From positions 26,944-90,943 of the forward strand of contig CAZHPR010000001.1 in assembly GCA_964534305.1 (NCBI GenBank): a stretch of 64,000 nt of DNA, read 5' to 3'. The notes under the pieces are model-generated. The model searched no databases. It saw only the letters and a program-made list of their open reading frames with translations, and had not been told where the DNA came from. Origin of the DNA: an uncultured Candidatus Saccharibacteria bacterium (GTDB taxonomy: Bacteria > Patescibacteriota > Minisyncoccia > Phycocordibacterales > WO2-35-19). The position numbers were made by a program, and so were the translations under genes. Shown here piece after piece: positions 6,919-63,141 of this stretch (position 1 is the stretch's first letter; each line of letters starts with the position of its first letter).

Positions 6919-7986
6919 ATGAGTCAATATAAACTAAAAACAAATAAGCTGCCAAAAGGAGAAATTGAGATAGAGGGAGAGATAGACTCTTCCCTACTTC
7001 TTGAAGCACGAAAAAAAGCATTAAAAAAGATTGGCCAAGATGTTGAGGTTGACGGATTTCGCAAAGGAAATGTGCCAGAGAAAATAATCATAGATAAATT
7101 TGGAGAATCTTTCATCATGGAAGAGGCGGCTGAAATACTTCTTCAAGAACACTACCCTCTTATAGTTAAAGAGATGGACCTAGACACCATAGGTAGACCA
7201 AATATTTCTATAACAAAATTGGCCTTGGGCAATCCGCTCCAGTTCAAAATAAAAACAGCAACCCTACCAGAAATAAAACTCCCTGATTACAAAAAGATTG
7301 CGAAAGAAAAAAACTCAAAAAAAATTGAGATCCCGGAAGTTACCGAAAAGGAAATTGATGAGATACTACTACAGATAAGAAAAAATAAAGCTCATTTTGA
7401 CTGGCATAAATCAAATCCAAAAGAAGATGGCCACAACCATCCTGATTTTGAAAAAGAAGAAAATCTTCCAGTCTTAGATGACCAGCTTGCAAAAGAAGCG
7501 GGAAACTTTAAGGATCTTGCCGAGATGAAAGAAAAGATAAAAGAGAATATAAAAAAAGACAAAGAACTTAGGGAAGTAGAAAAAAGAAGGGGTGAAATAA
7601 TCGACGCCCTTGTAAAAGAAACTGATTTTGAGGTACCAGACATTTTGGTAGAGGCGGAAGTTTCAAAATATATGGCACAAATGCAAGACGATATAGAGAG
7701 AGCTGGGGGCAAGTTTAGCGAGTATCTATCACACATAAAGAAAACTGAAGATGATCTGAGGAAGGAGTGGCGAGAGCCGGCTGAAAATAAAGCAAAGGTA
7801 CAGCTTATATTCAACAAAATTGCCGAGACAGAAAAGTTGGAACCAAACAAAGAAATCCTAGAAAATGAAGTAAAACACTTGCTAGAACATTACCCAAATT
7901 CTAGCGAAGAAAACGCTCGTATCTACGTTTCTACTATTCTCCTCAACAGCGAAGTCCTCAAACTCCTAGAGAACCAAAAGGCTTAA
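6919..7986 (+). CDS. tig: Trigger factor with ribosome-binding N domain and C domain but no recognisable PPIase domain
   Basis: N-terminal GFRKGNVP signature and a tig-clpP neighbourhood. No FKBP-like segment is seen. Start is probably MSQYKL at 6919 rather than the ORF-track start at 6895. Confidence 0.75.
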   Translation: MSQYKLKTNKLPKGEIEIEGEIDSSLLLEARKKALKKIGQDVEVDGFRKGNVPEKIIIDKFGESFIMEEAAEILLQEHYPLIVKEMDLDTIGRPNISITKLALGNPLQFKIKTATLPEIKLPDYKKIAKEKNSKKIEIPEVTEKEIDEILLQIRKNKAHFDWHKSNPKEDGHNHPDFEKEENLPVLDDQLAKEAGNFKDLAEMKEKIKENIKKDKELREVEKRRGEIIDALVKETDFEVPDILVEAEVSKYMAQMQDDIERAGGKFSEYLSHIKKTEDDLRKEWREPAENKAKVQLIFNKIAETEKLEPNKEILENEVKHLLEHYPNSSEENARIYVSTILLNSEVLKLLENQKA

Positions 7987-8679
7987 GGCGGCGATGGCGG
8001 CGGTTTCGGCGCGCAAAACAAGAGAACCCAGAGAATACACTTGGGCTTCTTTTTGTTTAAATAGATCTAACTCCTTTGGAGACCAGCCACCTTCAGGCCC
8101 GATGAATAAGTTTACAGACTCCAGATTATAGTTTTCAGTTCCCCTCTTCTTTGCAAGGAGAGGGGTTAGGGGTGAGGTAGAAGAAGGCTCCAATATAATC
8201 ACCCCTCCTTCTGTTTCCTCAATACTATCTGCTAACTGCTTAATGCTATTTATCTCCGGTACATCAGCTCTGCCGCACTGCTCGCTTGCCTCTATCGCAA
8301 TCCTCTTTGCTCTTTCAAGGTTAAAACCTTTTTTCTCACTTCTTTCTGAAAGGATTGGAATTATTTTTGAGACCCCAAGTTCTGTCGCCTTTTCTATCAC
8401 CAGCTCAAGGTTATCTTTTTTTATCAAAGAAATATAAAGACTAATTTTATTTTTAGGGACCACTCCCCCTCTCTCTTCTAAGAGTCTCACCCAAGCTTCT
8501 CGATTGTTTATTGTTTCTATAACGTATAGGTATTCGCTCCCCCTACCGTCAAAGAGGACAACCTCGCTCCCAACATTGTATCTAAAGACACTTCTCCACT
8601 GGTGCATCAAATCTCTATCCTGCAACAGGGTCCTATCGCTACCTAAATCCTTTTTTATATAAAACCTATGTAGTCGCAT
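7966..8679 (-). CDS. rsmE: 16S rRNA (uracil1498-N3)-methyltransferase RsmE carrying a 15-aa in-frame repeat-element insertion
   Basis: RsmE family motifs (…LFIGPEGGWSPKE…, N-terminal PUA-like domain). The STSPLTPLLAKKRGT segment is encoded by the palindromic element at 8139-8183. Confidence 0.8.
   Translation of the reverse strand: MRLHRFYIKKDLGSDRTLLQDRDLMHQWRSVFRYNVGSEVVLFDGRGSEYLYVIETINNREAWVRLLEERGGVVPKNKISLYISLIKKDNLELVIEKATELGVSKIIPILSERSEKKGFNLERAKRIAIEASEQCGRADVPEINSIKQLADSIEETEGGVIILEPSSTSPLTPLLAKKRGTENYNLESVNLFIGPEGGWSPKELDLFKQKEAQVYSLGSLVLRAETAAIAALSLLVL
8139..8183. repeat. G+C-rich palindromic element (solo copy) inserted in frame within rsmE
   Basis: GTTCCCCTCTTCTTTGCAAGGAGAGGGGTTAGGGGTGAGGTAGAA. 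The same 45-bp unit is also at 11931-11975. Confidence 0.85.
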
Positions 8680-11739: not shown

Positions 11740-11779
11740 CCCTCCCCTGATCAAGGGGAGGGTTGGGTGGGGTTATTCC
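11740..11779. repeat. Palindromic element variant (solo copy) directly after the stop codon of the MBL ribonuclease gene
   Basis: CCCTCCCCTGATCAAGGGGAGGGTTGGGTGGGGTTATTCC. The hairpin loop resembles the 17609 element and the tail resembles the main family. Confidence 0.7.
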
Positions 11780-11788: not shown

Positions 11789-13237
11789 TTAATCCAAAAA
11801 GTATTCCTTACCGGGTTCGGGATAAATTGCTTCTATATCTAAGTACTCACGGATGCGTTGAGAGAGAAAGAGCGAAGAACGCGGTTCACCCATGATAGTA
11901 AAAACTTTTTTGAGAGAGTGTTGTTGTGTGGTTCCCCTCTCCTTTGCAAGGAGAGGGGTTAGGGGTGAGGTAGAACCTTCCGAAGCCTCCTCGACAAACT
12001 CCACCAAATTATCAGAATCTTTGTGTGAAGAGTAACCCTTTATTGTCTCTATCTTTGCTCTTACTTTTATTTTTTGACCATTTATCTTGACCTCACTCTT
12101 GCCGTCCTCAAGAGCCCGGCCCAAGCTACCCAGAGTTTGATACCCAACAAGGAGGAGGGTGTTTTTGTGATCGTCCAAAATATCAGCTTCATGAGCCAAA
12201 ACCCTCCCCCCTTCAGACATACCAGAGCCAGCAATTATTATCTTCGGGCCACCTTTTTTTATAACAGACTTACTTTCTTCAAAACCGTCTACAATATTGA
12301 GGCCAGGAAAATCAAATATGTTATCGCCCCTTTTTATCTCTTCTTGTACTTCCTTTTTAAAATCAGTTGCGTATTTTTTATAGATGTTTGTTACTTTTAT
12401 AGCCAGTGGAGAATCAAGATAGACAGGGACTTTCTCTATCTCCCCATCTTCTATCATGTTGTTTAGTTCGTACAGCATTACCTGAGTCCTTTCTATAGAA
12501 AAAGCTGGTATAACAATGGTTCCACCCCTCTTTATCCCCTCTTGGATCACCCCCTTAAACCTCTCTCTTCTTTCTTCTTTACTCTCATGATTTCTATCTC
12601 CATAAACACTCTCCATAACAATATAATTTGCTCCTTCTGGAATTTCTGTATCCGGTAATAATGGCGAAGGAGAATTGCCCAAATCTCCTGTAAAGGAAAT
12701 CTTGCGTACTTCATTCAAATCGAAAGATCCATAAGAAATATTTATTATGGCAGAACCGAGTATATGGCCAGCATTTTGCATATCTATCTTTATATCTTTA
12801 CCTAGGTTTATTGTTTGATTGTAATCGCAACCCTCCCACAAAGACATCGTTTTTTCTATATCCTTCTCTTCATAGAGATTTTTGTCGCGATGCCTAGACC
12901 TAAAAACTTTAAGAGCATCTAGGAGCATTGGCCTTGCAAGCTCCAGGGTTTCCTTTGTTGAAATTATTTTTCCACCAAAGCCCTCTCTCACAAGCTTTGG
13001 TATTTTGCCAATATGATCCATATGAGCATGAGTCACCAGTAGAAAATCAAAAGAAGACGGGTCGTATTTGAATGGCTCAAAGTTTTTTAGTTCATCATTG
13101 AAACTACCCTGGAGCAGACCACAATCAACCATAATCTTTGTACCAGCATAAAGAAATTCTATGTTTGCACCGGTTGCGGTCCCTACCCCACCCCAAAAAA
13201 TTAGTTTTGCATTTTTATCTTTATTTTGTTGACTCAT
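11789..13237 (-). CDS. MBL-fold beta-CASP ribonuclease (RNase J / CPSF-like) carrying a 15-aa in-frame repeat-element insertion
   Basis: HxHxDH motif (VTHAHMDHIG) and a beta-CASP-like central region. The C-terminal segment STSPLTPLLAKERGT is encoded by the element at 11931-11975. Confidence 0.7.
   Translation of the reverse strand: MSQQNKDKNAKLIFWGGVGTATGANIEFLYAGTKIMVDCGLLQGSFNDELKNFEPFKYDPSSFDFLLVTHAHMDHIGKIPKLVREGFGGKIISTKETLELARPMLLDALKVFRSRHRDKNLYEEKDIEKTMSLWEGCDYNQTINLGKDIKIDMQNAGHILGSAIINISYGSFDLNEVRKISFTGDLGNSPSPLLPDTEIPEGANYIVMESVYGDRNHESKEERRERFKGVIQEGIKRGGTIVIPAFSIERTQVMLYELNNMIEDGEIEKVPVYLDSPLAIKVTNIYKKYATDFKKEVQEEIKRGDNIFDFPGLNIVDGFEESKSVIKKGGPKIIIAGSGMSEGGRVLAHEADILDDHKNTLLLVGYQTLGSLGRALEDGKSEVKINGQKIKVRAKIETIKGYSSHKDSDNLVEFVEEASEGSTSPLTPLLAKERGTTQQHSLKKVFTIMGEPRSSLFLSQRIREYLDIEAIYPEPGKEYFLD
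11931..11975. repeat. G+C-rich palindromic element (solo copy) inserted in frame within the MBL ribonuclease gene
   Basis: GTTCCCCTCTCCTTTGCAAGGAGAGGGGTTAGGGGTGAGGTAGAA. Confidence 0.85.
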
Positions 13238-17150: not shown

Positions 17151-17199
17151 TGGGCTAAATATAGCATTATTATTTTATTTATAAACCCCCTCCGGCTTA

Positions 17200-17635
17200 A
17201 AGCCACCTCCCCCTTAATCAGGGGGAGGAAACACCCCACCCATCACAAATTATTTCTTATTTTTAAAATTACTTCCTCCACCCCATTATCAATCTCTTTA
17301 TTCCAAAACCTTAAAGTCTTATACCCCAAGTCTTCCATAAACAACTGTCTTACCCTGTCATACTCTTTATTTTGATTGTGAATTTCTCCGTCAATTTCGA
17401 TAACTAATTTTTTCTCTGGACAAAAGAAATCAACTACATAACCTCCAATACTATGCTGTCTCCTAAATTTCACCCCCAACTGACTACGTCTCAAATACCA
17501 CCAAATTTTATTCTCTTGCGGAGTTGGGTTTCTTCTAAGTTCCTTTCTATGCTCCCGGAGGCTGTATAGATTATGCAACTTCTTCATAACGATAAGTAGC
17601 AGTTTTTTCTTTCCCCTGATTAAGGGGAAAGTGGC
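17200..17635. mobile_element. Small cassette of one DUF559 endonuclease gene flanked by about 30-bp inverted repeats, inserted between adk and map
   Basis: Left arm AAGCCACCTCCCCCTTAATCAGGGGGAGGAAA (17200-17231). Right arm TTTCTTTCCCCTGATTAAGGGGAAAGTGGCC (17605-17635) is its imperfect reverse complement. Confidence 0.55.
17243..17587 (-). CDS. DUF559 (Vsr-like, PD-(D/E)xK) endonuclease-domain protein
   Basis: …ENKIWWYLRRSQLGVKFRRQHSIGGYVVDFFCPEKKLVIEIDG…LRFWN… The ORF-track start at 17638 reads through the right inverted repeat. The Met at 17587 is the more likely start. Confidence 0.8.
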   Translation of the reverse strand: MKKLHNLYSLREHRKELRRNPTPQENKIWWYLRRSQLGVKFRRQHSIGGYVVDFFCPEKKLVIEIDGEIHNQNKEYDRVRQLFMEDLGYKTLRFWNKEIDNGVEEVILKIRNNL

Positions 17636-17652
17636 CAAAGGCCGATAGGGGT

Positions 17653-42935: not shown

Positions 42936-43034
42936 ATGTTTTGGAAACTGTTCGGCTGGGTATCTTACCAGATACTCAAGTTTTTTAACTGGTTAGGTTC
43001 CCGGAAGAAGAAATGGGCGCTGACCAAACAGTAA
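42936..43034 (+). CDS. Unannotated small ORF (32 aa, aromatic-rich then basic: MFWKLFGWVSYQILKFFNWLGSRKKKWALTKQ)
   Basis: AGGAG 8 nt upstream of the ATG. A hairpin plus T-run terminator (43035-43075) follows directly. Confidence 0.4.
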   Translation: MFWKLFGWVSYQILKFFNWLGSRKKKWALTKQ

Positions 43035-43090
43035 GGGCTGATCGCAAGATCAGCCCTTAACCATTTTATTATTTATGTGTTTTTTGTTTT

Positions 43091-43140
43091 CCTCCCCTCT
43101 CCTCTTGCAAGGAGAGGGGTTGGGGGTGAGGTAGATTATT
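43091..43140. repeat. Palindromic element (solo copy) abutting or overlapping the fusA stop codon
   Basis: CCTCCCCTCTCCTCTTGCAAGGAGAGGGGTTGGGGGTGAGGTAGATTATT. Confidence 0.8.
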
Positions 43141-45292
43141 TCCTAGCCTCTGCAATAGAAGCAGCAACGTTTGGAGGCACTATTGCATAGTGATCAAACT
43201 CAATGTTTGCATTACCCCTACCTTCTGTCATAGATCTGAGGCTTGTGACATACCCGAAGAGCTCTGCTAGAGGCACTTTTGCCCTCACAACCTTGAGCCC
43301 AGCCCTATCATCCATACCCTCAATACTACCTCGCTTGGAAGAAAGATAACCGGTAACATCGCCCATGAATTGTTCTGGGACAGTCACTTCAACTTTCATC
43401 ACCGGCTCTAGGATCACAGGTTTTGCTTTCTTGGCAGCTTCCTGAAAGGCTTGAGAAGCAGCAATCTTGTAAGCAATTTCAGAAGAGTCAACATCGTGGT
43501 AAGAACCGAAGGTTAGCTCACAAGAAACATCTGTCATCTTGTAGCCAGCGACAATACCTCTCTCCATTGCCTCCTTTACTCCCTTCTCAACAGCTGGGAT
43601 AAATTCTGCGGGGATAACACCTCCTTTGATAGAATCAATGAATTCAAACCCTTCATCTCGATGGACATTTTTTGGCAACTTAGCATCTGGGTTTTCTAGA
43701 GGTTGTAGCGGTTTTATATTTAGCTTGACGTGACCATACTGACCCTTACCTCCAGTTTGTTTGATATATTTTGTCTCTGCTTCTGCGGTACCGGTAATTG
43801 TCTCTTTATAAGCAACCTGTGGAGCACCAACATTTGCTTCAACATTAAACTCTCTCTTCATACGGTCTACAATAATGTCTAGGTGTAGCTCACCCATACC
43901 TTGTATAACGGTCTCTCCTGTTTCGCTATCCCCTTTTACTCTAAACGTCGGATCCTCATCCGAAAGCCTCCTGAGAGCGGTACCCATTTTCTCTTGGTCT
44001 GCCTTTGTCTTTGGTTCAATACGTAGCGAGATAACAGGCTCTGGGAAAACTATTGATTCCAGAACGATAGGGTTGTTTTCATCAGCAAAGGTGTGAGATG
44101 TTTTTGCATTCTTGAGTCCTACCGCTGCAGCAATTTCTCCAGCAAAAACCTTTTTAACTTCTTCTCTTTGATCAGCCTGGAGACGGACAATTCTTCCAAG
44201 TCTCTCCCTCTCTCCAGTGCTTGCATTGTATATATAAGATCCAGATTCAATTGTTCCAGAGTAAACTCTGAAGAAAGTTAGCTGACCAACAAAAGGGTCT
44301 GCTTGCAACTTGAAAGCAAGTGCTGAGAATGGCTCTTCATCACTAGGATGTCTCTCAATCTCTTCACCTGTCTTTGGATCAGTACCCTTTATAGCAGGGA
44401 TATCAAGCGGAGAAGGCAGGAAATCTACAACCGCATCGAGCACAAGCTGGACACCTTTGTTTTTAAGTGCTGAACCAGTAAAGACTGGGAATATTTTGTT
44501 CTCAACAACCGCCTTTCTGAGTATTTTTTTTAAGGTGCTTACATCTATTTCTTCCCCAGATAGATATTTGTTCATCGCCTCGTCATCATTCTCCACAATC
44601 CTCTCAACGAGTTCTGCTCTATACTTTTCGGCATCAGCTCTTAGGTTTTCAGGAAAAGCGATTTCTACAACATTGTCTCCCAACTTACCCTCAAAGCCAT
44701 AAGCTTTCATCAGCAAAAGGTCTACAACTCCTTCGTGCTTGTCTTCTTCTCCTATAGGTATTTGCATTCTTACTGCCTTTTTTGAAAGCCTTTTTAGAAT
44801 CGAGTCATACGACTTTTCAAAATTCGCCCCTGTTCTGTCTAGTTTGTTTATAAAACAAAGCCTAGGTACGTTTGCTTCTTCTGCGTATCTCCAGTTGGTT
44901 TCGGATTGAGGCTCCACCCCAGCAACACCATCAAAGACGCAGACCGCGCCGTCGAGCACTCTCATTGACCTCTTTACTTCTACAGTAAAGTCTATGTGTC
45001 CAGGAGTATCTATAATATTGAAACGATACTTATTCTCTTTTTTGTTTCTTTCTTCTGGAGAAAGGTAGGTAGGTCCCCAGAAACAGGTTATCGCAGCAGC
45101 TGTGATGGTGATACCTCTTTCTCTCTCCTGTTCCATCCAGTCTGTTGTCGTCTGTCCTTCGTGCACTTCACCTATTTTGTGTTGACTTCCGGTGTAGTAC
45201 AAAATTCTCTCGGAAGTTGTCGTCTTCCCTGCGTCAATATGGGCTATAATCCCAAAATTTCTAACTCTCTCTAGTGGATAATCACGTTGCAT
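43136..45292 (-). CDS. fusA: Elongation factor G
   Basis: G-domain [21 protein letters not shown]. Confidence 0.9.
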
Positions 45293-45411
45293 AATAAATT
45301 ATTAACTACTAACTATTTTAAATTTAACTAAACAAAACCCTGGACCACTCGATAAATAAATTGAACAAACTTATTCCAGACAAGCAGCCAGTAATTTTTG
45401 CTAAGCAAAAA

Positions 45412-45888
45412 TTACCAAGCAAAGTGAGCGAATGCCTTGTTTGCTTCTGCCATCTTGTGGACGTTTTCTCGTTTTTTGATCGCCTCGCTGGTACTGTCGT
45501 TTTTGCTTGCAAGTACAATCTCTTCTGCCAATTTTTGATGCATAGGCTTGCCCTTCTTGTTCCTCGCAGCATCGATAATCCACTTCATAGAAAGATACAT
45601 TCTTCTCTCTGGCCTTACCTCTCTAGGGACCTGATAGTTTGCGCCTCCAACCCTTCTAGACCTTACTTCTACTGTCGGACCAGTGTTCTTTAGGGCGGTA
45701 TCAAAAATTTCTATCGGATTCTCTACTTTTGCATCCTTTTTTATAAGGTCAAAAGCTTCGTAGACTATCTTTCTTGCGGCGTTCTTCTTGCCTCTTTCCA
45801 TACAATAGTTTATAAACTTCTCCACCTTTGTTGAATTGAAGTTTATATCAGGCTTTACGATATTTCTGTTTTTTACTTTTCTTCTCAT
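45412..45888 (-). CDS. rpsG: 30S ribosomal protein S7
   Basis: S7 family sequence; position rpsL-rpsG-fusA. Confidence 0.9.
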   Translation of the reverse strand: MRRKVKNRNIVKPDINFNSTKVEKFINYCMERGKKNAARKIVYEAFDLIKKDAKVENPIEIFDTALKNTGPTVEVRSRRVGGANYQVPREVRPERRMYLSMKWIIDAARNKKGKPMHQKLAEEIVLASKNDSTSEAIKKRENVHKMAEANKAFAHFAW

Positions 45889-45904
45889 GTTTTGTTTTTG
45901 TATT

Positions 45905-45950
45905 TTCCTCCCCTCTCTTAGATTAAGAGAGGGTTAGGGTGAGTTATTTT
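45905..45950. repeat. Palindromic element (solo copy) filling the rpsL-rpsG intergenic spacer
   Basis: CCTCCCCTCTCTTAGATTAAGAGAGGGTTAGGGTGAGTTATTTTTA. Confidence 0.8.
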
Positions 45951-46360
45951 TATGACTTGGGCTTCTTTACTCCATAACTAGATCTTGAGGTTCTTCTCTT
46001 ATCTACTCCAGCTGCATCCAGTCTTCCTCTTACAATTGTGTATCTAACTCCAATATCCTTCACTCTACCACCTCTTAGAGTCACAACTGAGTGCTCTTGC
46101 AAATTGTGCCCAATACCTGGGATATAAGCTGTAACCTCCATACCGTTTGTAAGACGAACCCTGGCTATCTTTCTAATAGCAGAGTTAGGCTTTCTTGGAG
46201 TCTTTGTTGTTACCTTTGTGCAAACCCCCTTCTTAAAAGGAGATGGGTAATATACTGGCTTATTTTTGAGCGTATTAAAACCACGAGCCAAAGCAACAGC
46301 CTTTGACTTCGTCTTTACTATCTTTCTTTTCTTTCTTACTAATTGATTTATTGTAGCCAC
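45948..46360 (-). CDS. rpsL: 30S ribosomal protein S12
   Basis: …[11 protein letters not shown]… S12 signature. Confidence 0.9.
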
Positions 46361-46427
46361 GTTTTTATTAAAAAATTTGCACTAAAAACAGCTCATTCGC
46401 TGCCTCAACAATCTAATATAAAGGCAA

Positions 46428-47039
46428 CTAAAATGCAAGCCCTGTAATAAGAGTAAACGACTTAAACACAATAGGGCTAAAAAATTGCCAAAAGAATGCA
46501 ACAAAAATAAACACCAAGAAAAAGCCGTATTGCTCCATATTTCTCCGCAATGATTCCATCTTTAGTGGCAAAAAGGCGAAAAGTATCTTTGAGCCATCGA
46601 GCGGAGGCACCGGGATCAGATTAAAAAATGCCAAAGTTAGGTTTATAAGGACAACAAAGCTAAGTACCGGAGTAATACTTGATATTTCTAAAGACCTTAT
46701 TATAAACCCAAATACAACTGCAATACCTATATTTGAAAGAGGACCAGCAAAGGCAACTAAAGCTTCCCCAAACCTCGCTGGCAGACCCCACCTTCTAGGG
46801 TCTAGGTTATAAGGATTGAATGGTACCGGTCTTGCCCAACCGACGATAAAGCCTCCAAGAAAATAACCTACAAGTGGCACAAGCACCGAACCAACCGGAT
46901 CAAGATGTTTTATTGGATTTAGAGTTAGCCTGTCTTGATATTTGGCTGTCGGGTCGCCGAGGGCCAAGGCTGCATAGCCATGCGCCACCTCATGGATAAC
47001 TACCGACATTATTAAAATTGCTACTACAAATAAAAACAT
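46428..47039 (-). CDS. Site-2-protease-like membrane zinc metalloprotease (M50-like, HExxH)
   Basis: HEVAHGYAA within a TM helix; several TM segments; …PLDGS…. Confidence 0.55.
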   Translation of the reverse strand: MFLFVVAILIMSVVIHEVAHGYAALALGDPTAKYQDRLTLNPIKHLDPVGSVLVPLVGYFLGGFIVGWARPVPFNPYNLDPRRWGLPARFGEALVAFAGPLSNIGIAVVFGFIIRSLEISSITPVLSFVVLINLTLAFFNLIPVPPLDGSKILFAFLPLKMESLRRNMEQYGFFLVFIFVAFFWQFFSPIVFKSFTLITGLAF

Positions 47040-47077
47040 TGCTTTTGTTATTACTATATGTTAGCATACTCTCCACT

Positions 47078-47320
47078 ATGGCAAGAAGTTGCGCAATAAC
47101 AGGAAAATCATCACAAGTCGGGGGCGGCTATAGCAACCGCACTCGTGCAACCCAGTTCAACCCAACTGGGTCTAGGAGGCGCTATGCCAATCTTCAGAAA
47201 AAGAAGGTTTTTGTGCCTGAACTCGGCAAATCTTTCAACCTTACCCTATCAGCCAAAGCCATCAAAACTATCCAGAAAAAAGGCGCCTTTGCCACTCTCA
47301 AAGACGCAGGGATAATATAG
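47078..47320 (+). CDS. rpmB: 50S ribosomal protein L28
   Basis: MARSCAITGK…NRTRATQFNP… L28 family sequence. The ORF-track start at 47018 overlaps the neighbouring gene, so the internal Met was chosen. Confidence 0.75.
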   Translation: MARSCAITGKSSQVGGGYSNRTRATQFNPTGSRRRYANLQKKKVFVPELGKSFNLTLSAKAIKTIQKKGAFATLKDAGII

Positions 47321-47383
47321 TAGCTAGCATCTAGCATTAAGTATCTAAGTAAAAGTCCTAAACCAAGGTTATTTTTTGTTTGT

Positions 47384-47428
47384 CCCCCTCTCTTAATTTA
47401 AGAGAGGGGTTAGGGGTGAGTTATTTTT
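47384..47428. repeat. Palindromic element (solo copy) that encodes the last 5 codons and the stop codon of the ComEC MBL-domain gene
   Basis: CCCCCTCTCTTAATTTAAGAGAGGGGTTAGGGGTGAGTTATTTTT. Confidence 0.85.
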
Positions 47429-48300
47429 AGATTTACCCCATCACTCTTGAAAATAATGCTACCAGAAGTATCAGTGCGGAGAGTTTTTATATTTAATTTC
47501 TCCAAGAGGGCTAGTACTTCTTGATGCGGATGACCGTAGCGATTGTCCTTACCACTAGAGACAACTGCATACTCCGGATTTACCGCTCTTACAAAATTAT
47601 CAGAACTAGAAGTTCTTGAGCCGTGATGTCCAAGTTTTAATACATCACTTTCTAGTCCCAAGGAGAGTCCTTGGGATCTATATTTGTTTACCAAATAATT
47701 TTCTATTGCACTCGGCGAATCTCCGGTAAGCAAAAATTCATTCTCGCCATAAACAAGACGAGCAACGATTGAGGCAGTATTTGTCTCCCACCCACTTACA
47801 TCTTTTTCTGGAAACAAGATTTCCAAAAATGCTCCCCCACCCAAATTGATTTGCATGCCAGCTCTTGCAAGAATCTTTTTTATTTTTCCTCCACTTTCTA
47901 ACTTGCCAACTTGCGTCTTTAAACTTTCATATATATCTGTATCCGACTCTACCCCGGGTTCCAAAAAAAGATCTACCTCATAATTCTCTAAAATATCAAC
48001 GAGTCCCCCCACATGATCCGCATCTGGATGAGTTGCAACAACAACATCAAGAGACCGATCATAAAACTTCATCACCTTAGAAATTTCTCGAAGTACCCCC
48101 CTCCCCACCCCACCATCAACAAGAACTTGGTTGCCTGAGGGAGACTCTATAAAAATGGCATCCCCTTGCCCAACGTCCAAAAAGGCAACCGTGAGCAGTC
48201 CTCTATTATTTCTGAGATCCAAAAAAACAAAGAGAGAAATTAGGATAGCGAGAATAAACAGGATGCTCACTAAGAGTCTAATTTTTAATTTTGAACTCAT
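47410..48300 (-). CDS. Stand-alone ComEC-type metallo-beta-lactamase domain protein
   Basis: N-terminal TM anchor followed by …VAFLDVGQGDAIFIE… and …ATHPDADHVGG… (the MBL part of ComEC). Confidence 0.7.
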   Translation of the reverse strand: MSSKLKIRLLVSILFILAILISLFVFLDLRNNRGLLTVAFLDVGQGDAIFIESPSGNQVLVDGGVGRGVLREISKVMKFYDRSLDVVVATHPDADHVGGLVDILENYEVDLFLEPGVESDTDIYESLKTQVGKLESGGKIKKILARAGMQINLGGGAFLEILFPEKDVSGWETNTASIVARLVYGENEFLLTGDSPSAIENYLVNKYRSQGLSLGLESDVLKLGHHGSRTSSSDNFVRAVNPEYAVVSSGKDNRYGHPHQEVLALLEKLNIKTLRTDTSGSIIFKSDGVNLKITHP

Positions 48301-54020: not shown

Positions 54021-54983
54021 TTAATCTAACGCTTCGATTCCAGGGAGGGTCCCATTGGCAAGGAAGTCGAGCATGGCGCCGCCAGCAGTCGAGACGAAGG
54101 TAAATTTGTCTTCTATATTAAGTTCTTTGATAGCCGAGAGAGTATCTCCACCGCCCACTATCACCTCCACTTTTTCATGTAATTCTGCTAGTCCTTGGGC
54201 AAGGGCTTTGGTCCCCTCAGTATATCCATTTTCATAATTACCCAAAGGGCCGTTCCACAAAACAAATTTAGAGACTCTCGCCTTTTCTAAAATAAGATCA
54301 ACAGTTGGCAAATCGGCATCGAGAGCTGAGTAATCACAGAGAGGAAAAAATATTTTAGGATTGGAAGAAAGTTTGGGGTCTTTCGAAGCCGGTAGAGCAA
54401 GAGTGCCCCCAACAAACACTACATCCGCAATATCTAAAAACTTTTCTAAAAGTGGAATCTTGGTCTCAAGTTTTGCACCACCAAGTATAAACAGAAATGG
54501 GTGGAGCGGATTAAAGGCTTTTGAAAGATTCTCTACTTCTTTCATAAAATTTATTCCTGCATACTTTTCACTCATAAAATTTGGTACTCCCACTACTGAA
54601 GCATGGCTTCGGTGAGAAACCGAAAACGCTTCATTAACATAAATCTCCCCCTGAGCAGCGAGCTCTTTTGCAAAACTTTCATCGTTTTCTTCTTCTCTAC
54701 TATCTATTCTTAGATTTGGCAAAAATTCTACGTGTGTTTTTAAAATAGGAAATTTGTTTTTTGCATATTCAAAAACCGGATCCATAGATTCTCCTGCCCT
54801 ACCAAAATGGCTCATCAAAACAACCTTGCCATTATTATCCAGTATATATTTTATTGTTTCTAATGAGGCAAAAATCCTTGAATCATCAGAAACCCTACCG
54901 TTTTTATCTACTGGCACATTCCAATCAACTCGGAGTAATACCCTTTTACCATCAAAATTTTTGACTGAAGTTATTGGCTTCAT
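54021..54983 (-). CDS. pgk: Phosphoglycerate kinase (compact, 320 aa)
   Basis: N-terminal …KRVLLRVDWNVPVD…DDSRI…S…TI… PGK signature. Confidence 0.8.
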   Translation of the reverse strand: MKPITSVKNFDGKRVLLRVDWNVPVDKNGRVSDDSRIFASLETIKYILDNNGKVVLMSHFGRAGESMDPVFEYAKNKFPILKTHVEFLPNLRIDSREEENDESFAKELAAQGEIYVNEAFSVSHRSHASVVGVPNFMSEKYAGINFMKEVENLSKAFNPLHPFLFILGGAKLETKIPLLEKFLDIADVVFVGGTLALPASKDPKLSSNPKIFFPLCDYSALDADLPTVDLILEKARVSKFVLWNGPLGNYENGYTEGTKALAQGLAELHEKVEVIVGGGDTLSAIKELNIEDKFTFVSTAGGAMLDFLANGTLPGIEALD

Positions 54984-55063
54984 ACTTTATATTTTAGCAG
55001 ATTAATAACTCACCCCCTATCCCCCTCTCTTACAACAAGAGAGGGGGGACCAAAAAATACAAT

Positions 55064-55624
55064 CTATTTCTGATTAAAATACTCTGGAATCTCATTTGCT
55101 TTAATAATAATCCTGTTTGGGAACATATTTCGTAGCTCATCCACCAAGGGATAAAATTTTGTGTTAACCACTAAAGATCCTACATTAATTTTAAACAAAC
55201 CTGTTTCGTCTGGTCTTTGTGGTTTTCCACCTGGAAATGGGTTGTCTTTTTCTAAAACAACTAAAAAATTACACTGGGTCATAAATCCTCCAAACATACC
55301 GCCTAATTTTCCAACGTCTCCTTTTATTCCACCATTTGAAAGAATGTTCAGAGCTGCTGTTACCCATTCAAGGTCTCTACCCCTAGTAATTCCGTGTGCC
55401 AAATAATTATTTAAAACTTCTGTTGGTATATCTCTCAGATAATAGTCAATGGCATTTTGATACCTTTCGGTTGCAAAAGGAGGATTCCATCCGTTTACAT
55501 CTTGATTAGCTTGAGCTGTTATTTCGGCATCGTATTTTTCAAGTAGCTCCTGAGCCACTTTCTCAGATTCCCCAAAAGGGACGAATTCTTGTTTTGGTTG
55601 TGGGTTTTGTGGTTGATTTTCCAT
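55064..55624 (-). CDS. Hypothetical protein (cargo gene of the cassette)
   Basis: ORF only. Gly-rich central segment. No family assignment. Confidence 0.4.
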   Translation of the reverse strand: MENQPQNPQPKQEFVPFGESEKVAQELLEKYDAEITAQANQDVNGWNPPFATERYQNAIDYYLRDIPTEVLNNYLAHGITRGRDLEWVTAALNILSNGGIKGDVGKLGGMFGGFMTQCNFLVVLEKDNPFPGGKPQRPDETGLFKINVGSLVVNTKFYPLVDELRNMFPNRIIIKANEIPEYFNQK

Positions 55625-55647
55625 ATTATCCAGGCCGCTAATTATTC

Positions 55648-55998
55648 TTATAATTTTAATTCTGTACTTCTTCTGATATTTTCTAAAACTTTATCCAAGT
55701 TGTTTAAAATATCATTATTCCAAAATCTTATAGTTCTTATATCTTTATCTTTTAAAAAGTCCTCGCGTTCTTGGTCGTATTCTACAGCACTTTTATGTTG
55801 TTCACCATCTAGTTCTATCGCAAGTCTTTTTTCTGCACAAAAGAAATCTAGTATATACGGGCCTGCACTATATTGTCTTAAAAATTTTAAATTGTTTACT
55901 TGTCTGTTCCTAATTTTTGACCAAAGGAGTCTTTCTGCTTCAGTTTGATTTGACCTGAGTTCACGTCGTCGCTCTAGTTGGTTTTGGTCGTTATACAT
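55648..55998 (-). CDS. DUF559 (Vsr-like) endonuclease-domain protein
   Basis: …EAERLLWSKIRNRQVNNLKFLRQYSAGPYILDFFCAEKRLAIELDGEQH…IRFWNN… Start set at the ATG at 55998; the ORF-track TTG start reads into the repeat. Confidence 0.85.
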   Translation of the reverse strand: MYNDQNQLERRRELRSNQTEAERLLWSKIRNRQVNNLKFLRQYSAGPYILDFFCAEKRLAIELDGEQHKSAVEYDQEREDFLKDKDIRTIRFWNNDILNNLDKVLENIRRSTELKL

Positions 55999-56171
55999 AT
56001 TTGTATGATTCCGGTTTCCCCCTTGTTGTAAGGGGTGAGAATGCGCAGTATTCGCAAGACTTTTTGAGATATTTTTATGCAATTAAAATATCCAAAAAGT
56101 GTACAGTCCTTGTAAGGGATTAGGGGGGTTATTCCCCCTATCTTGTTGTAAGAGAGGGGTTAGGGGGTGAG

Positions 56172-56939
56172 TTATTTTACATCCACACTTTTCAAAATTT
56201 CTGGAAACTCTTCTTTTTTTAGTGAAGCATGACCAACAAGAAATCCTTCTACATTACCGTAGTCTATTATGGCTCTAGCATTCGGGGCCTCAACAGCAGC
56301 TCCATAGAGGATACGCACAGAAGAAGCAATATCTTTACCAAACAATTCACCCAAAGATTTTCTGATAAAAAGGACTGTCTCGTGTATATCAGTTGGACTC
56401 ATTGCTTCTCTATAAGATTTTCCTATCGTCCAGACCGGCTCATAGGCGATAATAAGTCCCAACATATATTTCTTTTGTAAGCCGGAGATAGAATTTTTAA
56501 GTTGTTCTTTTAAGAACTCGAGATGACTTCCTTCTCTATCTCTAACACTTTCCCCGATACACAGGATTGGAGTAAGACCAGCTTCAAACACTGACTCTAA
56601 TTTTTTGTTTATTATTTTATTATCCTCACCCATTGCCCTCCTCTCAGAGTGCCCGACCAAAACAAACCTAACTCCCAAATCTTTGAGCATTTGATTGCTC
56701 ACTTCCCCAGTAAAGGCGCCCTTTTCTTCAAAATACGAGTTTTGTGCTGTAATAAATAGATTTTTAGGTCTGCTTATTTTTGACAACAGCCCAAGATACA
56801 CAAAAGGAGGAGCGACCAAAACCTCTGTATTTTTGAGTACTGAGGCGGTCTTTTTTGTAAAATTAAATATACTTTTTGCTTCTTCAAGAGAACTCGGGTT
56901 CATCTTCCAATTTGCTATAACTATATTTTTCTTTTTCAT
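56172..56939 (-). CDS. tpiA: Triosephosphate isomerase
   Basis: …IANWKMN… and …VGHSERR… motifs. Its stop codon lies inside the right inverted repeat. Confidence 0.9.
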   Translation of the reverse strand: MKKKNIVIANWKMNPSSLEEAKSIFNFTKKTASVLKNTEVLVAPPFVYLGLLSKISRPKNLFITAQNSYFEEKGAFTGEVSNQMLKDLGVRFVLVGHSERRAMGEDNKIINKKLESVFEAGLTPILCIGESVRDREGSHLEFLKEQLKNSISGLQKKYMLGLIIAYEPVWTIGKSYREAMSPTDIHETVLFIRKSLGELFGKDIASSVRILYGAAVEAPNARAIIDYGNVEGFLVGHASLKKEEFPEILKSVDVK

Positions 56940-62117: not shown

Positions 62118-62235
62118 AAATAGAAAATTAATTTTCTATTTAATTATATCAGTATAAAAAAATTTTTTTATAGAATATGTAAATAACTCACCCCCTGCCC
62201 CCTCTCTTACAACAAGAGAGGGGGTAAGAAAAAAA

Positions 62236-62610
62236 TTACTCAGGTCTGCAATATATCTCTAATCTAATATCACTCGGATCATCAAACCAGATAAATTCTT
62301 TATCACCATACTTATCAATTTTGATTCCGCTGTTTTTTATACCTACTTTATTTAAAACTCTCTCGAGTTCTCTTAATTCCTCTCCTGTTTTTACTCCAAA
62401 AGCCAAATGGTTCAAACTGGTTTTGTCTTTATCTGATTTTTCGTATTCTCCATAAGGCAGACCAAAAAATATTTTGGTTTCTCCAATTTTGTAAGCAACC
62501 TGATTTTTATCTTGATAGTCTGGTTTACCAAGAAAAGAAGAATAGAATTTTTCTGTCTTCTCAATGTTCTTAACTATCAAAACTATGTGGTCTATATATT
62601 TAGGGTGCAT
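62236..62610 (-). CDS. VOC-family (glyoxalase/bleomycin-resistance/dioxygenase) protein
   Basis: …IDHIVLIVKNIEKTEKFY… N-terminal beta-alpha-beta-beta-beta module. Confidence 0.7.
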   Translation of the reverse strand: MHPKYIDHIVLIVKNIEKTEKFYSSFLGKPDYQDKNQVAYKIGETKIFFGLPYGEYEKSDKDKTSLNHLAFGVKTGEELRELERVLNKVGIKNSGIKIDKYGDKEFIWFDDPSDIRLEIYCRPE

Positions 62611-62614
62611 ATTT

Positions 62615-62968
62615 TTATAGTTTATTTTTTAAAGAATTTTCTATTATAACTTTCAAAACTCCTTCAATATCTTTTACTACTTCATTATTCCAAAATCTTA
62701 TAGTTCTTATATCTTTATCTTTTAAAAAGTCCTCGCGTTCTTGGTCGTATTCTACAGCACTTTTATGTTGTTCACCATCTAGTTCTATCGCAAGTCTTTT
62801 TTCTGCACAAAAGAAATCTAGTATATACGGGCCTGCACTATATTGTCTTAAAAATTTTAAATTGTTTACTTGTCTGTTCCTAATTTTTGACCAAAGGAGT
62901 CTTTCTGCTTCAGTTTGATTTGACCTGAGTTCACGTCGTCGCTCTAGTTGGTTTTGGTCGTTATACAT
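62615..62968 (-). CDS. DUF559 (Vsr-like) endonuclease-domain protein, second near-identical copy
   Basis: Identical to the 55648 copy except for the C-terminal 20-25 residues. Confidence 0.85.
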   Translation of the reverse strand: MYNDQNQLERRRELRSNQTEAERLLWSKIRNRQVNNLKFLRQYSAGPYILDFFCAEKRLAIELDGEQHKSAVEYDQEREDFLKDKDIRTIRFWNNEVVKDIEGVLKVIIENSLKNKL

Positions 62969-63141
62969 ATTTGTATGATTCCGGTTTCCCCCTTGTTGTA
63001 AGGGGTGAGAATGCGCAGTATTCGCAAGACTTTTTGAGATATTTTTATGCAATTAAAATATCCAAAAAGTGTACAGTCCTTGTAAGGGATTAGGGGGGTT
63101 ATTCCCCCTATCTTGTTGTAAGAGAGGGGTTAGGGGGTGAG

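What the first reader, a model, noticed from the sequence alone, without database searches (positions are those of the whole stretch)
47384..47428. Solo palindromic elements systematically overlap gene 3' ends and supply stop codons
In several copies the element tail GTGAGTTATT, or the internal GGGGTTAGGGG, provides the TAA stop (read on the minus strand) or the last codons of the upstream gene. Examples are the ComEC-MBL gene (last codons KITHP-stop at 47408-47425), fusA (stop within 43136-43138), rpsL (45948-45950), tpiA (56172-56174), pilB (63142-63144) and the MBL ribonuclease (11786-11788 next to the 11740 copy). This suggests a target preference for TTA/TAA-containing 3' ends, or selection for elements acting as terminators immediately after stop codons. 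Comparable behaviour is known for Correia and RUP-type MITEs, but not for this sequence family.
Basis: seen in the sequence. Interest (0 to 1): 0.6.

Follow-up and report, generated by a model that had tools for sequence, protein, structure and literature searches.

The report
BoxC-type triplex repeats with DUF559 nuclease
The "solo palindromes" are Patescibacteria members of the known BoxC/PIT/TMECO family of hairpin-plus-mirror-tail (intrastrand-triplex) repeats; they also flank three inserted DUF559 endonuclease genes, and their overlap with stop codons is mostly a by-product of where they landed.

Summary
The elements are real: 10 copies in 64 kb, against 0.7 motif matches expected by chance. 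Each has a C-rich arm, a loop, a G-rich arm, a 3-nt linker and a G-rich tail that mirrors the arm. This is the BoxC/PIT/TMECO intrastrand-triplex architecture described in E. coli.

Syntenic relatives give empty sites. The TAA stops of tpiA, pilB, fusA and rpsL sit at their ancestral positions. Only the ComEC-MBL gene was remodelled (ancestral ...IK*, here ...ITHP*). "Supplying stop codons" therefore holds for one of six cited cases. A landing preference for TAA-containing, tail-like sequence is supported. A terminator role is not.

- Two copies lie in frame inside genes (RsmE and an MBL/beta-CASP RNase).
- Three DUF559 (Vsr-like nuclease) genes are insertions between housekeeping genes that are adjacent in relatives, each flanked by inverted copies of these elements.
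- The same element occurs in many phyla, often in frame in essential genes, sometimes with an embedded DUF559 domain.

A DUF559-first sample (10 taxa) and E. coli ycjD show the same association. Holder et al. 2015 found no mobile-element link for the E. coli motif, and no searched paper reports this one. It suggests a REPtron-like system. The mobilising role of DUF559 is inferred, not shown.

The parts
47385..47422 (+). Solo triplex-motif element, the focus of the finding: CCCCTCTCTT-aattt-AAGAGAGGGG-tta-GGGGTGAGTT. A T-rich inner flank lies at 47370-47384. The tail extension ATT runs to 47425.
   Evidence: The DNA hairpin folds at -10.7 kcal/mol, z = -5.2. The element is absent from the ComEC|L28 junction of relatives L124 and L125.
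47410..47412 (-). TAA stop of the ComEC-MBL gene (47410..48300, minus strand). It is the element's 3-nt linker. Codons T, H and P (47413-47421) are the element tail.
   Evidence: Relatives end ...IK* rather than ...ITHP*.
43094..43133 (+). Solo element between the fusA stop (43136-43138) and the native fusA terminator.
   Evidence: Relatives L125 and L123 lack the roughly 50-nt core but keep TCTACCTCA(C/T) after the same TAA.
43032..43059 (-). Native intrinsic-terminator-like hairpin of the fusA operon. It is conserved in relatives and lies downstream of the element.
45911..45945 (+). Solo element with 3/3/3 G-runs, part of a 61-nt insertion between rpsL (stop at 45950-45952) and rpsG (start at 45888).
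   Evidence: Relatives have the overlapping TAATG junction.
8141..8179 (+). Element in frame inside the RsmE gene (7966..8679, minus strand). It encodes STSPLTPLLAKKRGT.
   Evidence: An orthologous copy is present in L121. A different variant of the motif sits at the same loop in L122.
11934..11972 (+). Element in frame inside the MBL/beta-CASP RNase gene (11789..13237, minus strand). It encodes STSPLTPLLAKERGT.
11740..11774 (+). Solo variant element: CCCTCCCCT-gatc-AAGGGGAGGG-tt-GGGTGGGGTT. It lies 14 nt from the RNase stop at 11789-11791.
54984..56171 (-). A 1.19-kb insertion between tpiA and pgk, which are 9 nt apart in relatives. It holds element 56134-56173 (+), the DUF559 gene 55648-55998 (-), an unknown 186-aa ORF at 55064-55624 (-), and inverted element 55007-55047 (-).
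62118..63141 (-). A roughly 1.0-kb insertion between pilB and pilC. It holds element 63104-63143 (+), the DUF559 gene 62615-62968 (-), a glyoxalase-like ORF at 62236-62610 (-), and inverted element 62185-62224 (-).
17151..17652 (-). A roughly 0.5-kb insertion between adk and map, which are 7 nt apart in relative L122. It holds a third DUF559 gene at 17243-17638 (-), flanked by 50-nt inverted repeats at 17182-17231 and 17606-17655 that carry variant C/G hairpins. The adk TAA is the outermost TAA of the repeat.
   Evidence: (inverted pair I4).
55712..56176 (-). A segment about 466 nt long that is 100% identical to the corresponding part of the pilB-side unit. It starts at the outer element end (AATAACTCAC) and stops abruptly inside DUF559.

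Best explanation
**What the elements are.** They are members of the BoxC/PIT/TMECO class of bacterial repeats. Each is a C-rich arm, a loop, a complementary G-rich arm, a 3-nt linker and a G-rich tail that mirrors the purine arm. A single strand with this layout can fold into a hairpin plus third strand, a purine-motif intrastrand triplex.

**How they behave here.** In this Patescibacteria genome they behave as selfish insertions in two forms.
- As inverted terminal repeats of three inserted DUF559 (Vsr-like PD-(D/E)xK endonuclease) genes.
- As solo, MITE/REP-like copies that survive only where they do little harm. That means the tiny spacer right after a stop codon, or in frame in a tolerant protein loop. 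Four of the six reading frames through the core element are open.

**Why they overlap stop codons.** The tail ends in ...CTCAC preceded by AATAA or by TCTAC (which follows a TAAT stop context at fusA). Copies sit at AT-rich, TAA-containing gene ends that already resemble that tail, so stop codon and element appear to overlap. The stop is normally the ancestral one. Occasionally, as in ComEC-MBL, the element replaces the last codon and the stop.

**Shown versus inferred.**
- Shown: the architecture, the insertion status relative to relatives, the ancestral stops, the in-frame copies, the DUF559 association and the wide distribution.
- Inferred: that DUF559 is the cognate enzyme that spreads or homogenises the elements, in a REPtron-like or homing-like way. 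The 466-nt identical tract is consistent with gene conversion between copies.
For: **Architecture and covariation.**
- Within the window, G-run lengths in arm, arm and tail covary as 3/3/3, 4/4/4 and 5/5/5.
- Stem ...CTCTT goes with tail ...GAGTT, and stem ...CTCCTT goes with tail ...GAGGTA.
- Across 41 unselected variant copies, 16 have a perfect mirror tail against 2.6 in shuffles; 0 of 2000 shuffles reach that.
- The pattern matches TMECO: CCCTCNCCC-N3-6-GGGNGAGGG-N3-GGGNGAGGG. That motif was shown to form a triplex in vitro (PMC4666352).
- A consensus copy hits 4974 of 5426 E. coli genomes at 80-95% identity. One example is the inverted pair between ugpB and ugpA.

**Insertion status.** Empty sites exist in syntenic relatives for rpsL|rpsG, tpiA|pgk, ComEC|L28, pilB|pilC, the fusA end and adk|map.

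**DUF559 association.**
- All 3 DUF559 genes in the window are flanked by inverted elements.
- 14 of 120 element-selected loci from many phyla carry DUF559, 11 of them within 200 nt. DUF559 was the only recurrent neighbouring family.
- In LeuRS and MetH, DUF559 is bracketed by inverted elements with the tails pointing outward.
- In 10 loci chosen by DUF559 alone, from 10 taxa, C/G hairpins occur at 4.3 per kb in the 220-250 nt beside the ORF. Elsewhere the density is 0.05-0.23 per kb.
- E. coli K-12 ycjD is followed by BoxC copies.

**Nuclease identity.** Pfam DUF559 matches at E = 1e-33, and PDB 3HRL at E = 2e-18. DUF559 clusters with Vsr and the homing endonuclease I-Bth0305I (PMC3424549).

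**Gene conversion.** A 466-nt stretch is 100% identical between the two DUF559 units and ends abruptly.

**In-frame copies elsewhere.** 39 of 131 copies lie in open frames with at least 100 codons on each side. The hosts include LeuRS, AlaRS, glutamate synthase, GatB, DnaE and topoisomerase.
Against: - No activity of DUF559 on these elements is known. Most copies (roughly 90%) have no DUF559 gene nearby. The window covers only part of the genome.
- Holder et al. 2015 reported no association of the E. coli motif with mobile elements. They found it only in intergenic DNA.
- No clear target-site duplication was found. AAAATAA on both sides of the ComEC copy is ambiguous in AT-rich DNA.
- Relatives retain 7-10 nt of the tail without the core at three sites. 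That fits target mimicry, but it fits loss of a former copy equally well.
- The TIRs of the third DUF559 gene do not show a clean mirror tail.
- The shuffle control for covariation does not correct for relatedness among copies.
Confidence: 0.7

Rival explanations
1. The elements are the passive party. They are unstable, structure-forming DNA that arises, decays and homogenises through replication slippage and recombination. DUF559 genes are free-standing homing-endonuclease-like genes that merely land in or next to such sites, so the elements are their targets and not their cargo.
For: - E. coli TMECO loci are hypervariable, with frequent small deletions attributed to slippage (PMC4666352).
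- Relatives keep partial tails without cores.
- The same RsmE loop carries different variants in different lineages.
- The conversion tract is typical of homing.
- DUF559 genes sit between conserved genes, as phage free-standing homing-endonuclease genes do.
Against: - DUF559 is bracketed by two inverted copies with tails outward in CPR, Bacteroidota, Chloroflexota and elsewhere. One landing event into a single solo element would not produce that arrangement.
- Near-identical 19-mers across phyla are hard to explain without co-transfer.
- Solo copies appear at new sites in close relatives.
Confidence: 0.2
2. The elements are selected as transcription terminators or mRNA 3'-end stabilisers placed immediately after stop codons.
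For: - The hairpins are strong, at -10 to -14 kcal/mol with z about -5.
- Most copies lie just downstream of a gene.
- REP-type repeats can stabilise upstream mRNA (general knowledge; PMC3733652).
Against: - No U-tract follows the hairpin in the direction of the upstream gene. An A-rich run follows instead.
- The native fusA terminator is retained downstream.
- One copy lies inside the rpsL-rpsG operon.
- Two copies are in frame within coding sequence.
- Orientation relative to the upstream gene varies.
- PIT elements had no terminator or promoter activity in E. coli.
Confidence: 0.05
3. The elements are REP-type repeats or MITEs mobilised by a conventional transposase located elsewhere in the genome, either a RAYT/IS200-type Y1 transposase or an IS transposase. 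DUF559 would then be unrelated cargo.
For: - The organisation resembles a REPtron, a gene flanked by inverted palindromic repeats.
- Three copies contain GTAG in the tail.
- A 113-nt inverted pair without a gene exists in relative L124.
Against: - No Y1 or IS transposase was found among the ORFs next to any copy in the window.
- GTAG is not adjacent to the stem and is absent from most copies.
- DUF559 is the only recurrent neighbouring family across phyla.
- No regular target-site duplication was seen.
Confidence: 0.05

Closest known systems
BoxC / PIT (potential intrastrand triplex) / TMECO repeats of E. coli and other bacteria (Bachellier 1990s; Hoyne and Maher 2000; Holder et al. 2015, PMC4666352)
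   Same: - The five-part layout is the same: C-rich arm, loop of 3-6 nt, G-rich arm, 3-nt loop, mirrored G-rich arm.
- The core sequence is the same: GAGAGGG-TTA-GGGTGAG.
- Both occur singly or as inverted pairs.
- Both lie between genes, including inside operons.
- Both show presence/absence variation between relatives.
   Different: - These copies are in a roughly 40% GC Patescibacteria genome and carry lineage-specific tail extensions (TTATT or GTAGA) and a T-rich inner flank.
- Two copies are in frame in genes, whereas the E. coli copies were reported as always intergenic.
- The copies flank DUF559 nuclease genes, whereas Holder et al. found no link of the E. coli motif to mobile elements.
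REP elements and REPtrons (RAYT flanked by REPs)
   Same: - Both are short palindromic repeats at gene ends whose termini can provide stop codons.
- Some copies of both lie inside ORFs (PMC3733652).
- In both, an enzyme gene is flanked by inverted copies of the repeat while most copies are solo.
   Different: - The associated gene is a PD-(D/E)xK (Vsr-like) nuclease and not an HUH Y1 transposase.
- No GTAG or CGTC tag lies next to the stem.
- There is an extra mirrored third segment.
- Almost the same sequence occurs across phyla, whereas REPs are lineage-specific.
Rickettsia palindromic elements (RPEs) and other in-frame MITEs (for example in Coxiella)
   Same: In both, palindromic repeats inserted in frame in protein-coding genes add a short peptide to proteins that are probably still functional.
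   Different: - There is no sequence relationship.
- The taxonomic range is much wider.
- The repeats are associated with a nuclease gene that can itself be embedded in frame (LeuRS, MetH).
Free-standing homing endonuclease genes; EDxHD/Vsr-like homing endonuclease I-Bth0305I
   Same: - The nuclease has a Vsr-like fold.
- The gene sits between conserved genes that are adjacent in relatives.
- Copies share a sharp-edged tract of identity, as expected from gene conversion.
   Different: - The gene is flanked by structured inverted repeats.
- It occupies many unrelated insertion sites within one genome.
- No intron or intein is involved.
- No cleavage site is known.
   Same: Both are small non-coding repeats next to or overlapping coding regions.
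   Different: - Correia and RUP elements have 15-30-bp TIRs, a defined target duplication and cognate IS transposases.
- A solo unit here is a single hairpin plus tail, with no TIR of its own and no clear duplication.

Membership tests
BoxC / PIT / TMECO intrastrand-triplex repeat | C-rich arm, loop of 3-6 nt, complementary G-rich arm, 3-nt loop, and a second G-rich arm that mirrors the first (G opposite G, A or T opposite A) | tested here: met
   - 6 of the 9 distinct arm/tail layouts in the window (10 copies; two are identical) have a perfect mirror tail, and 3 have one mismatch. G-run lengths covary.
- Among 41 variant copies from other genomes, 16 are perfect against 2.6 in shuffles, and 0 of 2000 shuffles reach that.
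BoxC / PIT / TMECO intrastrand-triplex repeat | Sequence similarity to the E. coli consensus (GGGAGAGGG-TTA-GGGTGAGGG) | tested here: met
   - A consensus of the GAGAGGGGTTAGGGGTGAG family matches 4974 of 5426 E. coli genomes at 80-95% identity over about 37 nt.
- The ugpB-ugpA pair was read directly.
- The window copies share the central GAGAGGG(G)-TTA-(G)GGGTGAG.
BoxC / PIT / TMECO intrastrand-triplex repeat | Forms a triplex as single-stranded DNA | not testable with these tools
   Only the hairpin part can be predicted here. Triplex formation was shown by CD and NMR for the E. coli motif (PMC4666352).
BoxC / PIT / TMECO intrastrand-triplex repeat | Exclusively intergenic, as reported for E. 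coli MG1655 | tested here: not met
   - Two of the ten window copies are in frame in coding sequence.
- 39 of 131 copies from other phyla lie in long open frames.
- This property was reported for one species and is not a structural definition.
REP / REPtron (RAYT-associated) | GTAG or CGTC tetranucleotide directly next to the palindrome | tested here: not met
   GTAG occurs in only 3 copies. It lies in or after the mirrored tail, about 10 nt from the stem.
REP / REPtron (RAYT-associated) | Y1 (IS200/IS605-like) transposase gene flanked by the repeats | tested here: not met
   The flanked genes are DUF559 (PF04480). No Y1_Tnp hit was found among the ORFs next to the copies. Not every ORF in the window was scanned.
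MITE (Correia/RUP type) | Terminal inverted repeats plus a regular target-site duplication | tested here: inconclusive
   - A solo unit has no TIR.
- Inverted pairs exist, such as L124 5366-5478 at 113 nt.
- AAAATAA lies on both sides of the ComEC copy but is not seen consistently elsewhere.
Intrinsic (Rho-independent) terminator | GC-rich hairpin directly followed by a T/U run in the direction of transcription | tested here: not met
   - The terminator scan over 43000-48000 flags the native fusA terminator but none of the three elements there.
- The T-run lies upstream of the hairpin.
Free-standing homing endonuclease gene | Nuclease gene present or absent between otherwise adjacent conserved genes | tested here: met
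   adk|map, tpiA|pgk and pilB|pilC are adjacent in relatives.
Free-standing homing endonuclease gene | The enzyme cleaves the unoccupied allele near the insertion site | not testable with these tools
   This needs biochemistry.
Rickettsia-type in-frame palindromic element (behaviour only) | Repeat inserted in frame in a conserved protein, adding a peptide at a variable loop | tested here: met
   - The RsmE and RNase alignments with relatives place the element-encoded peptide in a variable loop.
- Pfam hits confirm that the host proteins in other phyla are genuine.

The most novel reading that the evidence does not exclude
DUF559 (Vsr-like) nucleases may be the long-missing cognate enzymes of BoxC/PIT intrastrand-triplex repeats across bacteria. 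This would be a REPtron-like selfish system that recognises a folded hairpin-plus-third-strand DNA. It would spread solo copies and itself into gene ends, and in frame into essential genes (LeuRS, AlaRS, MetH, RsmE) without any intron or intein. It would also homogenise copies by gene conversion.
Probability: 0.35. Interest if true: 0.75.

Novelty: new variant of a known kind. Interest (0 to 1): 0.6.

Why it matters
BoxC/PIT repeats have been known in E. coli since the 1990s, but no origin, spreading mechanism or partner protein has been identified. The only published functional link is to local genome instability.

This window, its relatives, a DUF559-first sample and E. coli ycjD all point to one candidate partner, the uncharacterised DUF559 nuclease family (about 23,000 representative clusters at 50% identity). 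That makes the question directly testable in E. coli.

The results also show that these repeats, and sometimes the nuclease domain itself, sit in frame inside essential proteins in many phyla. This matters for three reasons:
- Genome annotation: it produces spurious fusions, odd C-termini and low-complexity PSP/GEG peptides.
- Protein-loop evolution.
- Understanding how streamlined Patescibacteria genomes tolerate selfish DNA.

For the original claim the lesson is more modest. Apparent donation of a stop codon should be checked against empty sites, because here it was real in only one case.

Tried and rejected
- **Rfam.** A gathering-threshold scan of the whole window found only tmRNA and two tRNAs, and no family for the element.
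- **Literature searches on sequence and peptide strings.** Searches for the DNA strings and for the encoded peptides (LTPNPSP, GEGLGVR and others) found nothing relevant.
- **Terminator hypothesis.** Rejected (PMC4666352).
- **REP/RAYT membership.** Rejected. There is no adjacent GTAG tag and no Y1 transposase next to the copies.
- **[quoted passage not shown]**
  - Considered because relatives keep CTCA(C/T) at three empty sites.
  - Rejected as the full explanation for four reasons:
    - The tail covaries with the stem.
    - The tail is present in every unit of tandem arrays.
    - The tail occurs inverted at the far end of DUF559 units.
    - The tail is absent from the empty rpsL|rpsG and ComEC|L28 sites.
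- **Tail pairs with the C-rich arm by Watson-Crick pairing (a two-state switch).** The mirror rule fits better in every window copy: 9-11 of 9-11 positions against 6-8.
- **G-quadruplex.** Some variants are G4 motifs. A G4 would not require the mirrored order or the matching of terminal TT with AA.
- **Target-site duplication.** Not established.
- **A Shine-Dalgarno role for the A-rich inner flank.** 16 of 53 copies are followed by an ORF start within 45 nt. The spacing is variable and this was not pursued.
Full report
**1. The observation**

The sequence at 47384-47428 reads GTCCCCCTCTCTTAATTTAAGAGAGGGGTTAGGGGTGAGTTATTT. It belongs to a real repeat family.
- GGGGTTAGGGG with up to one mismatch occurs 9 times in the window against 0.71 expected. 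None of 100 shuffles reaches 9.
- The repeat finder groups six to nine copies into one family.
- The 10-mer GTGAGTTATT alone is not above chance, at 6 against 5.5 expected.

I located ten copies:
- 8141-8179
- 11934-11972
- 43094-43133
- 45911-45945
- 47385-47422
- 56134-56173
- 63104-63143
- 11740-11774, a variant
- 55007-55047, in the opposite orientation
- 62185-62224, in the opposite orientation

The first eight are in + orientation. The window is 39.6% GC. Protein homologues place it in Patescibacteria, in the Paceibacteria/Zambryskibacteria neighbourhood, on an NCBI contig of 105,690 bp.

**2. Anatomy**

Every copy has five parts: a C-rich arm, a loop, the complementary G-rich arm, a 2-3-nt linker (usually TTA), and a G-rich tail. 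The tail is not arbitrary. Read 5' to 3', it equals the C-rich arm with C replaced by G and T replaced by T or A. In other words, it mirrors the purine arm.

Inside the window the three segments covary.
- G-run lengths are 3/3/3 at 45911, 4/4/4 at 47385 and 5/5/5 at 55007 and 62185.
- Stems ending ...CTCTT carry tails ...GAGTT.
- Stems ending ...CTCCTT carry tails ...GAGGTA.

I also tested 41 non-redundant variant copies. These were bystanders in loci fetched for other reasons and were not selected by my search pattern.
- 16 have a perfect mirror tail against 2.6 in shuffles (maximum 8 in 2000 shuffles).
- Total mismatches are 62 against 94.8 +/- 4.8.
- This control does not correct for relatedness. 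However, about a dozen different arm sequences obey the rule.

Watson-Crick pairing of the tail with the C-rich arm fits worse in every window copy. The hairpins are stable as DNA, at -10 to -14 kcal/mol with z about -5.

**3. The architecture is known**

Holder et al. 2015 (PMC4666352) describe the motif CCCTCNCCC-N3-6-GGGNGAGGG-N3-GGGNGAGGG. They name it TMECO. Earlier names are BoxC and PIT element. Their findings were:
- It is a purine-motif intrastrand triplex that forms in vitro (CD and NMR).
- It has 23 copies in E. coli MG1655, all intergenic. Some form inverted pairs.
- It has no promoter or terminator activity.
- They found no association of the E. coli motif with mobile elements.
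- Its loci are hypervariable between strains.

A consensus copy of the present family matches 4974 of 5426 complete E. coli genomes at 80-95% identity. I read one inverted pair between ugpB and ugpA.

The hits come from Chloroflexota, Bacteroidota, Cyanobacteria, Planctomycetota, Proteobacteria, several CPR lineages and others. All show the same layout, and some form 42-nt tandem arrays.

**4. Stop codons tested against empty sites**

Syntenic relatives supply unoccupied sites (L122-L128; 63-84% protein identity).
- **rpsL|rpsG.** Relatives have the overlapping junction AAC TAATG. The window has a 61-nt insertion after a TAA at the same position.
- **tpiA|pgk.** Relatives have GTA AAA TAA CTCATCAAT ATG. 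The window has the same GTA AAA TAA, then CTCAC and a 1.19-kb insertion.
- **pilB|pilC.** Relatives have TCG GAA TAA TACTCAC.... The window has TCG GAA TAA CTCAC and a roughly 1-kb insertion.
- **fusA.** Relatives have AGG AAA TAA TCTACCTCAC followed directly by the A-rich spacer and the native terminator. The window has the identical left part, then a roughly 50-nt core.

In these four genes the stop is at the ancestral position. The C-terminus is unchanged for tpiA, pilB and fusA. For rpsL the last residue differs (S here, N in relatives).

Only the ComEC-MBL gene was changed. About 35 relatives end ...VNL(K/R/E)(I/V)K*. The window protein and its two listed ~95%-identical relatives (P0122, P0123) end ...VNLKITHP*, with THP and the stop read from the tail and linker.

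In 62 metagenomic copies of the TTATT subtype the picture is similar:
- A long ORF ends in the tail TAA in 12.
- A long ORF ends in the central TAA in 2.
- A stop lies 1-60 nt upstream in 24.
- No long ORF ends there in 23.
- One copy is in frame.

The overlap is therefore common but not systematic. In this window it is mostly not a donation of the stop.

**5. Target preference**

At tpiA, pilB, fusA and adk the unoccupied sites of relatives already carry 4-10 nt identical to the element's outer tail, directly after the stop. The boundary between shared and inserted sequence falls at CTCAC|CCCC in three loci.

The tail is nevertheless part of the element, for three reasons:
- It covaries with the stem.
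- It is repeated in every unit of tandem arrays.
- It is present, inverted, at the far end of DUF559 units.

Either the elements land preferentially at sequences that resemble their own tail, or these relatives retain remnants of lost copies. I could not decide between the two.

**6. Not terminators**

- The T-run lies upstream of the hairpin. An A-run follows it in the direction of the abutting genes.
- The scan over 43000-48000 flags the native fusA terminator at 43032-43059 but none of the elements.
- That native terminator is conserved in relatives and lies downstream of the insertion.
- Canonical terminators exist at about 5675-5710 and 9330-9370.
- PIT elements had no terminator activity in E. 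coli.

**7. In-frame copies**

The copies at 8141 and 11934 lie inside the RsmE gene and an MBL/beta-CASP RNase gene. Both are translated as STSPLTPLLAK(K/E)RGT.

In RsmE the peptide sits in a hypervariable loop between FDPSG and FIGPEGGW.
- A 70% relative (L121) has the orthologous copy.
- L122 has a different variant of the triplex motif at the same place: CCCCACCCCC-TAG-CCCCCTCCCC-CTA-GGGGAGGGGG.
- Other relatives have other hairpin-like peptides or none.

Four of the six frames through the core element are open.

In other phyla, 39 of 131 copies lie in open frames with at least 100 codons on each side. Pfam confirms that the hosts are genuine. They include LeuRS (4), AlaRS (2), glutamate synthase, an NRPS, topoisomerase, GatB, DnaE and a CN-hydrolase.

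**8. DUF559**

The window holds three DUF559 genes (PF04480, E about 1e-33; PDB 3HRL at E = 2e-18). Each is an insertion between housekeeping genes that are adjacent in relatives: adk|map, tpiA|pgk and pilB|pilC. Each is flanked by inverted hairpin repeats with the tails pointing outward.

The two larger units are 100% identical for 466 nt. The identity runs from the outer tail to about codon 100 of DUF559 and then becomes unrelated. This suggests recent gene conversion.

The association holds beyond the window.
- Among the 120 element-selected loci, 14 carry DUF559, 11 of them within 200 nt. It was the only recurrent neighbouring family.
- In Bacteroidota LeuRS (four loci, two insertion positions) and an Anaerolinea MetH, a DUF559 domain sits in frame, bracketed by inverted elements. 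An example is ...EWVD-LTPNPSPKERG-[DUF559]-SPLLGRGVGGEV-KRETSTMPGYAGSSWY....
- Among the best 150 of about 22,800 representative DUF559 proteins, roughly 15 are long proteins with an embedded domain. The ten scanned include HsdS, Eco57I-like enzymes, EPSP synthase-DUF559-NUDIX and lipoyl-DUF559-PriA.
- In a DUF559-first sample of ten plasmid or chromid loci from ten taxa, C/G hairpins occur at 4.3 per kb within 220-250 nt of the ORF. Inside the ORF the density is 0. In unrelated sequence it is 0.05-0.23 per kb.
- In a 22-kb stretch of E. coli K-12, the single such hairpin is the BoxC next to ycjD, the DUF559 gene. The ycjD stop itself lies in a BoxC-like hairpin.

DUF559 clusters with Vsr and the homing endonuclease I-Bth0305I (PMC3424549). 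"DUF559 domain-containing protein" is enriched among predicted inversion targets (PMC9881135), which fits flanking inverted repeats.

No paper in the searched library links BoxC/PIT with DUF559 or ycjD. The library lacks most subscription journals.

**9. Interpretation**

The best-supported reading has three parts.
- The finding concerns Patescibacteria members of the BoxC/PIT family.
- They are selfish insertions. They persist right after stop codons or in tolerant loops, because a compact genome offers no other harmless place.
- They form a REPtron-like association with DUF559 nuclease genes.

That DUF559 mobilises or homogenises them is an inference. The main rival is that the repeats are only landing sites for a homing-type DUF559 gene.

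Repeat termini providing stop codons, and repeats inside ORFs, are already documented for REPs (PMC3733652). The DUF559 link and the widespread in-frame copies are the parts worth following up.

Noticed in passing
L023:984-4496(-), L050:1608-5423(+), L035:2-2983(-), L007:5725-7998(-), L027:58-4230(+): A DUF559 nuclease domain is embedded in frame in leucyl-tRNA synthetase (Bacteroidota, at two different positions) and in methionine synthase MetH (Anaerolinea). It is bracketed by inverted triplex-motif elements that are translated as LTPNPSP...GEG and SPL..GRGVGGEV linkers. No intein or intron signature is visible.
   Followed up: partly
window 55712-56176 and 62682-63146: The two DUF559 units are 100% identical for about 466 nt. 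The identity starts exactly at the outer element end and stops abruptly inside the gene. The last roughly 15 codons and everything downstream are unrelated. This looks like a recent gene-conversion tract.
   Followed up: partly
window 8141-8179; L121:1300-2016; L122:10001-10702: The same surface loop of RsmE carries different triplex-motif variants, or other hairpin-like peptides, in different Patescibacteria lineages (alignment A1). This could be a hotspot or in-situ concerted evolution.
   Followed up: partly
L191 (E. coli K-12 NC_000913.3) about 11200-11450 of the locus, downstream of ycjD: The 3' end of ycjD is partially duplicated (GAGACGGTGCTGGAGAATATTC...CTGAACCG appears twice). Each copy is followed by a BoxC-like hairpin, and the ycjD stop lies in the first hairpin.
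   Followed up: no
window 11110-11634: A 174-aa ORF (DUF5680, E = 5e-6) and the variant element at 11740 lie between RNase Y and the MBL RNase. These two genes are convergent and only 1 nt apart in relative L122. This is another small insertion.
   Followed up: no
window 55064-55624 and 62236-62610: Two different passenger ORFs lie between DUF559 and the inner inverted element of the two larger units. One is a 186-aa ORF with no Pfam hit, and the other is a glyoxalase-like protein of 124 aa. They may be cargo.
   Followed up: no
window 32956-33376; 29757-29830; 22754-22843: A tmRNA gene (94 bits) and two tRNA genes are the only Rfam gathering-level hits in the window.
   Followed up: no
window 5675-5710, 9330-9370, 43032-43059: Canonical intrinsic-terminator-like hairpins with A and T tracts follow the pyrophosphatase, ClpP and fusA genes. 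The genome therefore has ordinary terminators that are distinct from the elements.
   Followed up: partly
L124:3555-4971: The relative carries a bAvd-like gene next to a reverse transcriptase (RVT_1), which suggests a diversity-generating retroelement. It lies just upstream of a 113-nt inverted pair of elements at 5366-5478.
   Followed up: no
L010:2841-2943, L080:4281-4341, L035:1333-1393: Head-to-tail arrays of the element occur with a 42-nt period. In L035 and L080 they are translated as repeated LTPNPSP...G(E/G)G units.
   Followed up: no
window 54021-54983: The phosphoglycerate kinase ORF is only 320 aa, and relatives have 321-331 aa. It matches the 379-position Pfam PGK profile in three stretches. 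The protein appears shortened in this lineage.
   Followed up: no
metagenome loci L132, L133, L134, L154, L162; window 45889-45910: In the tail-first orientation, the A-rich inner flank (GGGGAAAGGAACAAAC...) often runs straight into the ATG of the next gene: 16 of 53 copies have an ORF start within 45 nt. The element could act as a ready-made stop-spacer-start module inside operons.
   Followed up: partly
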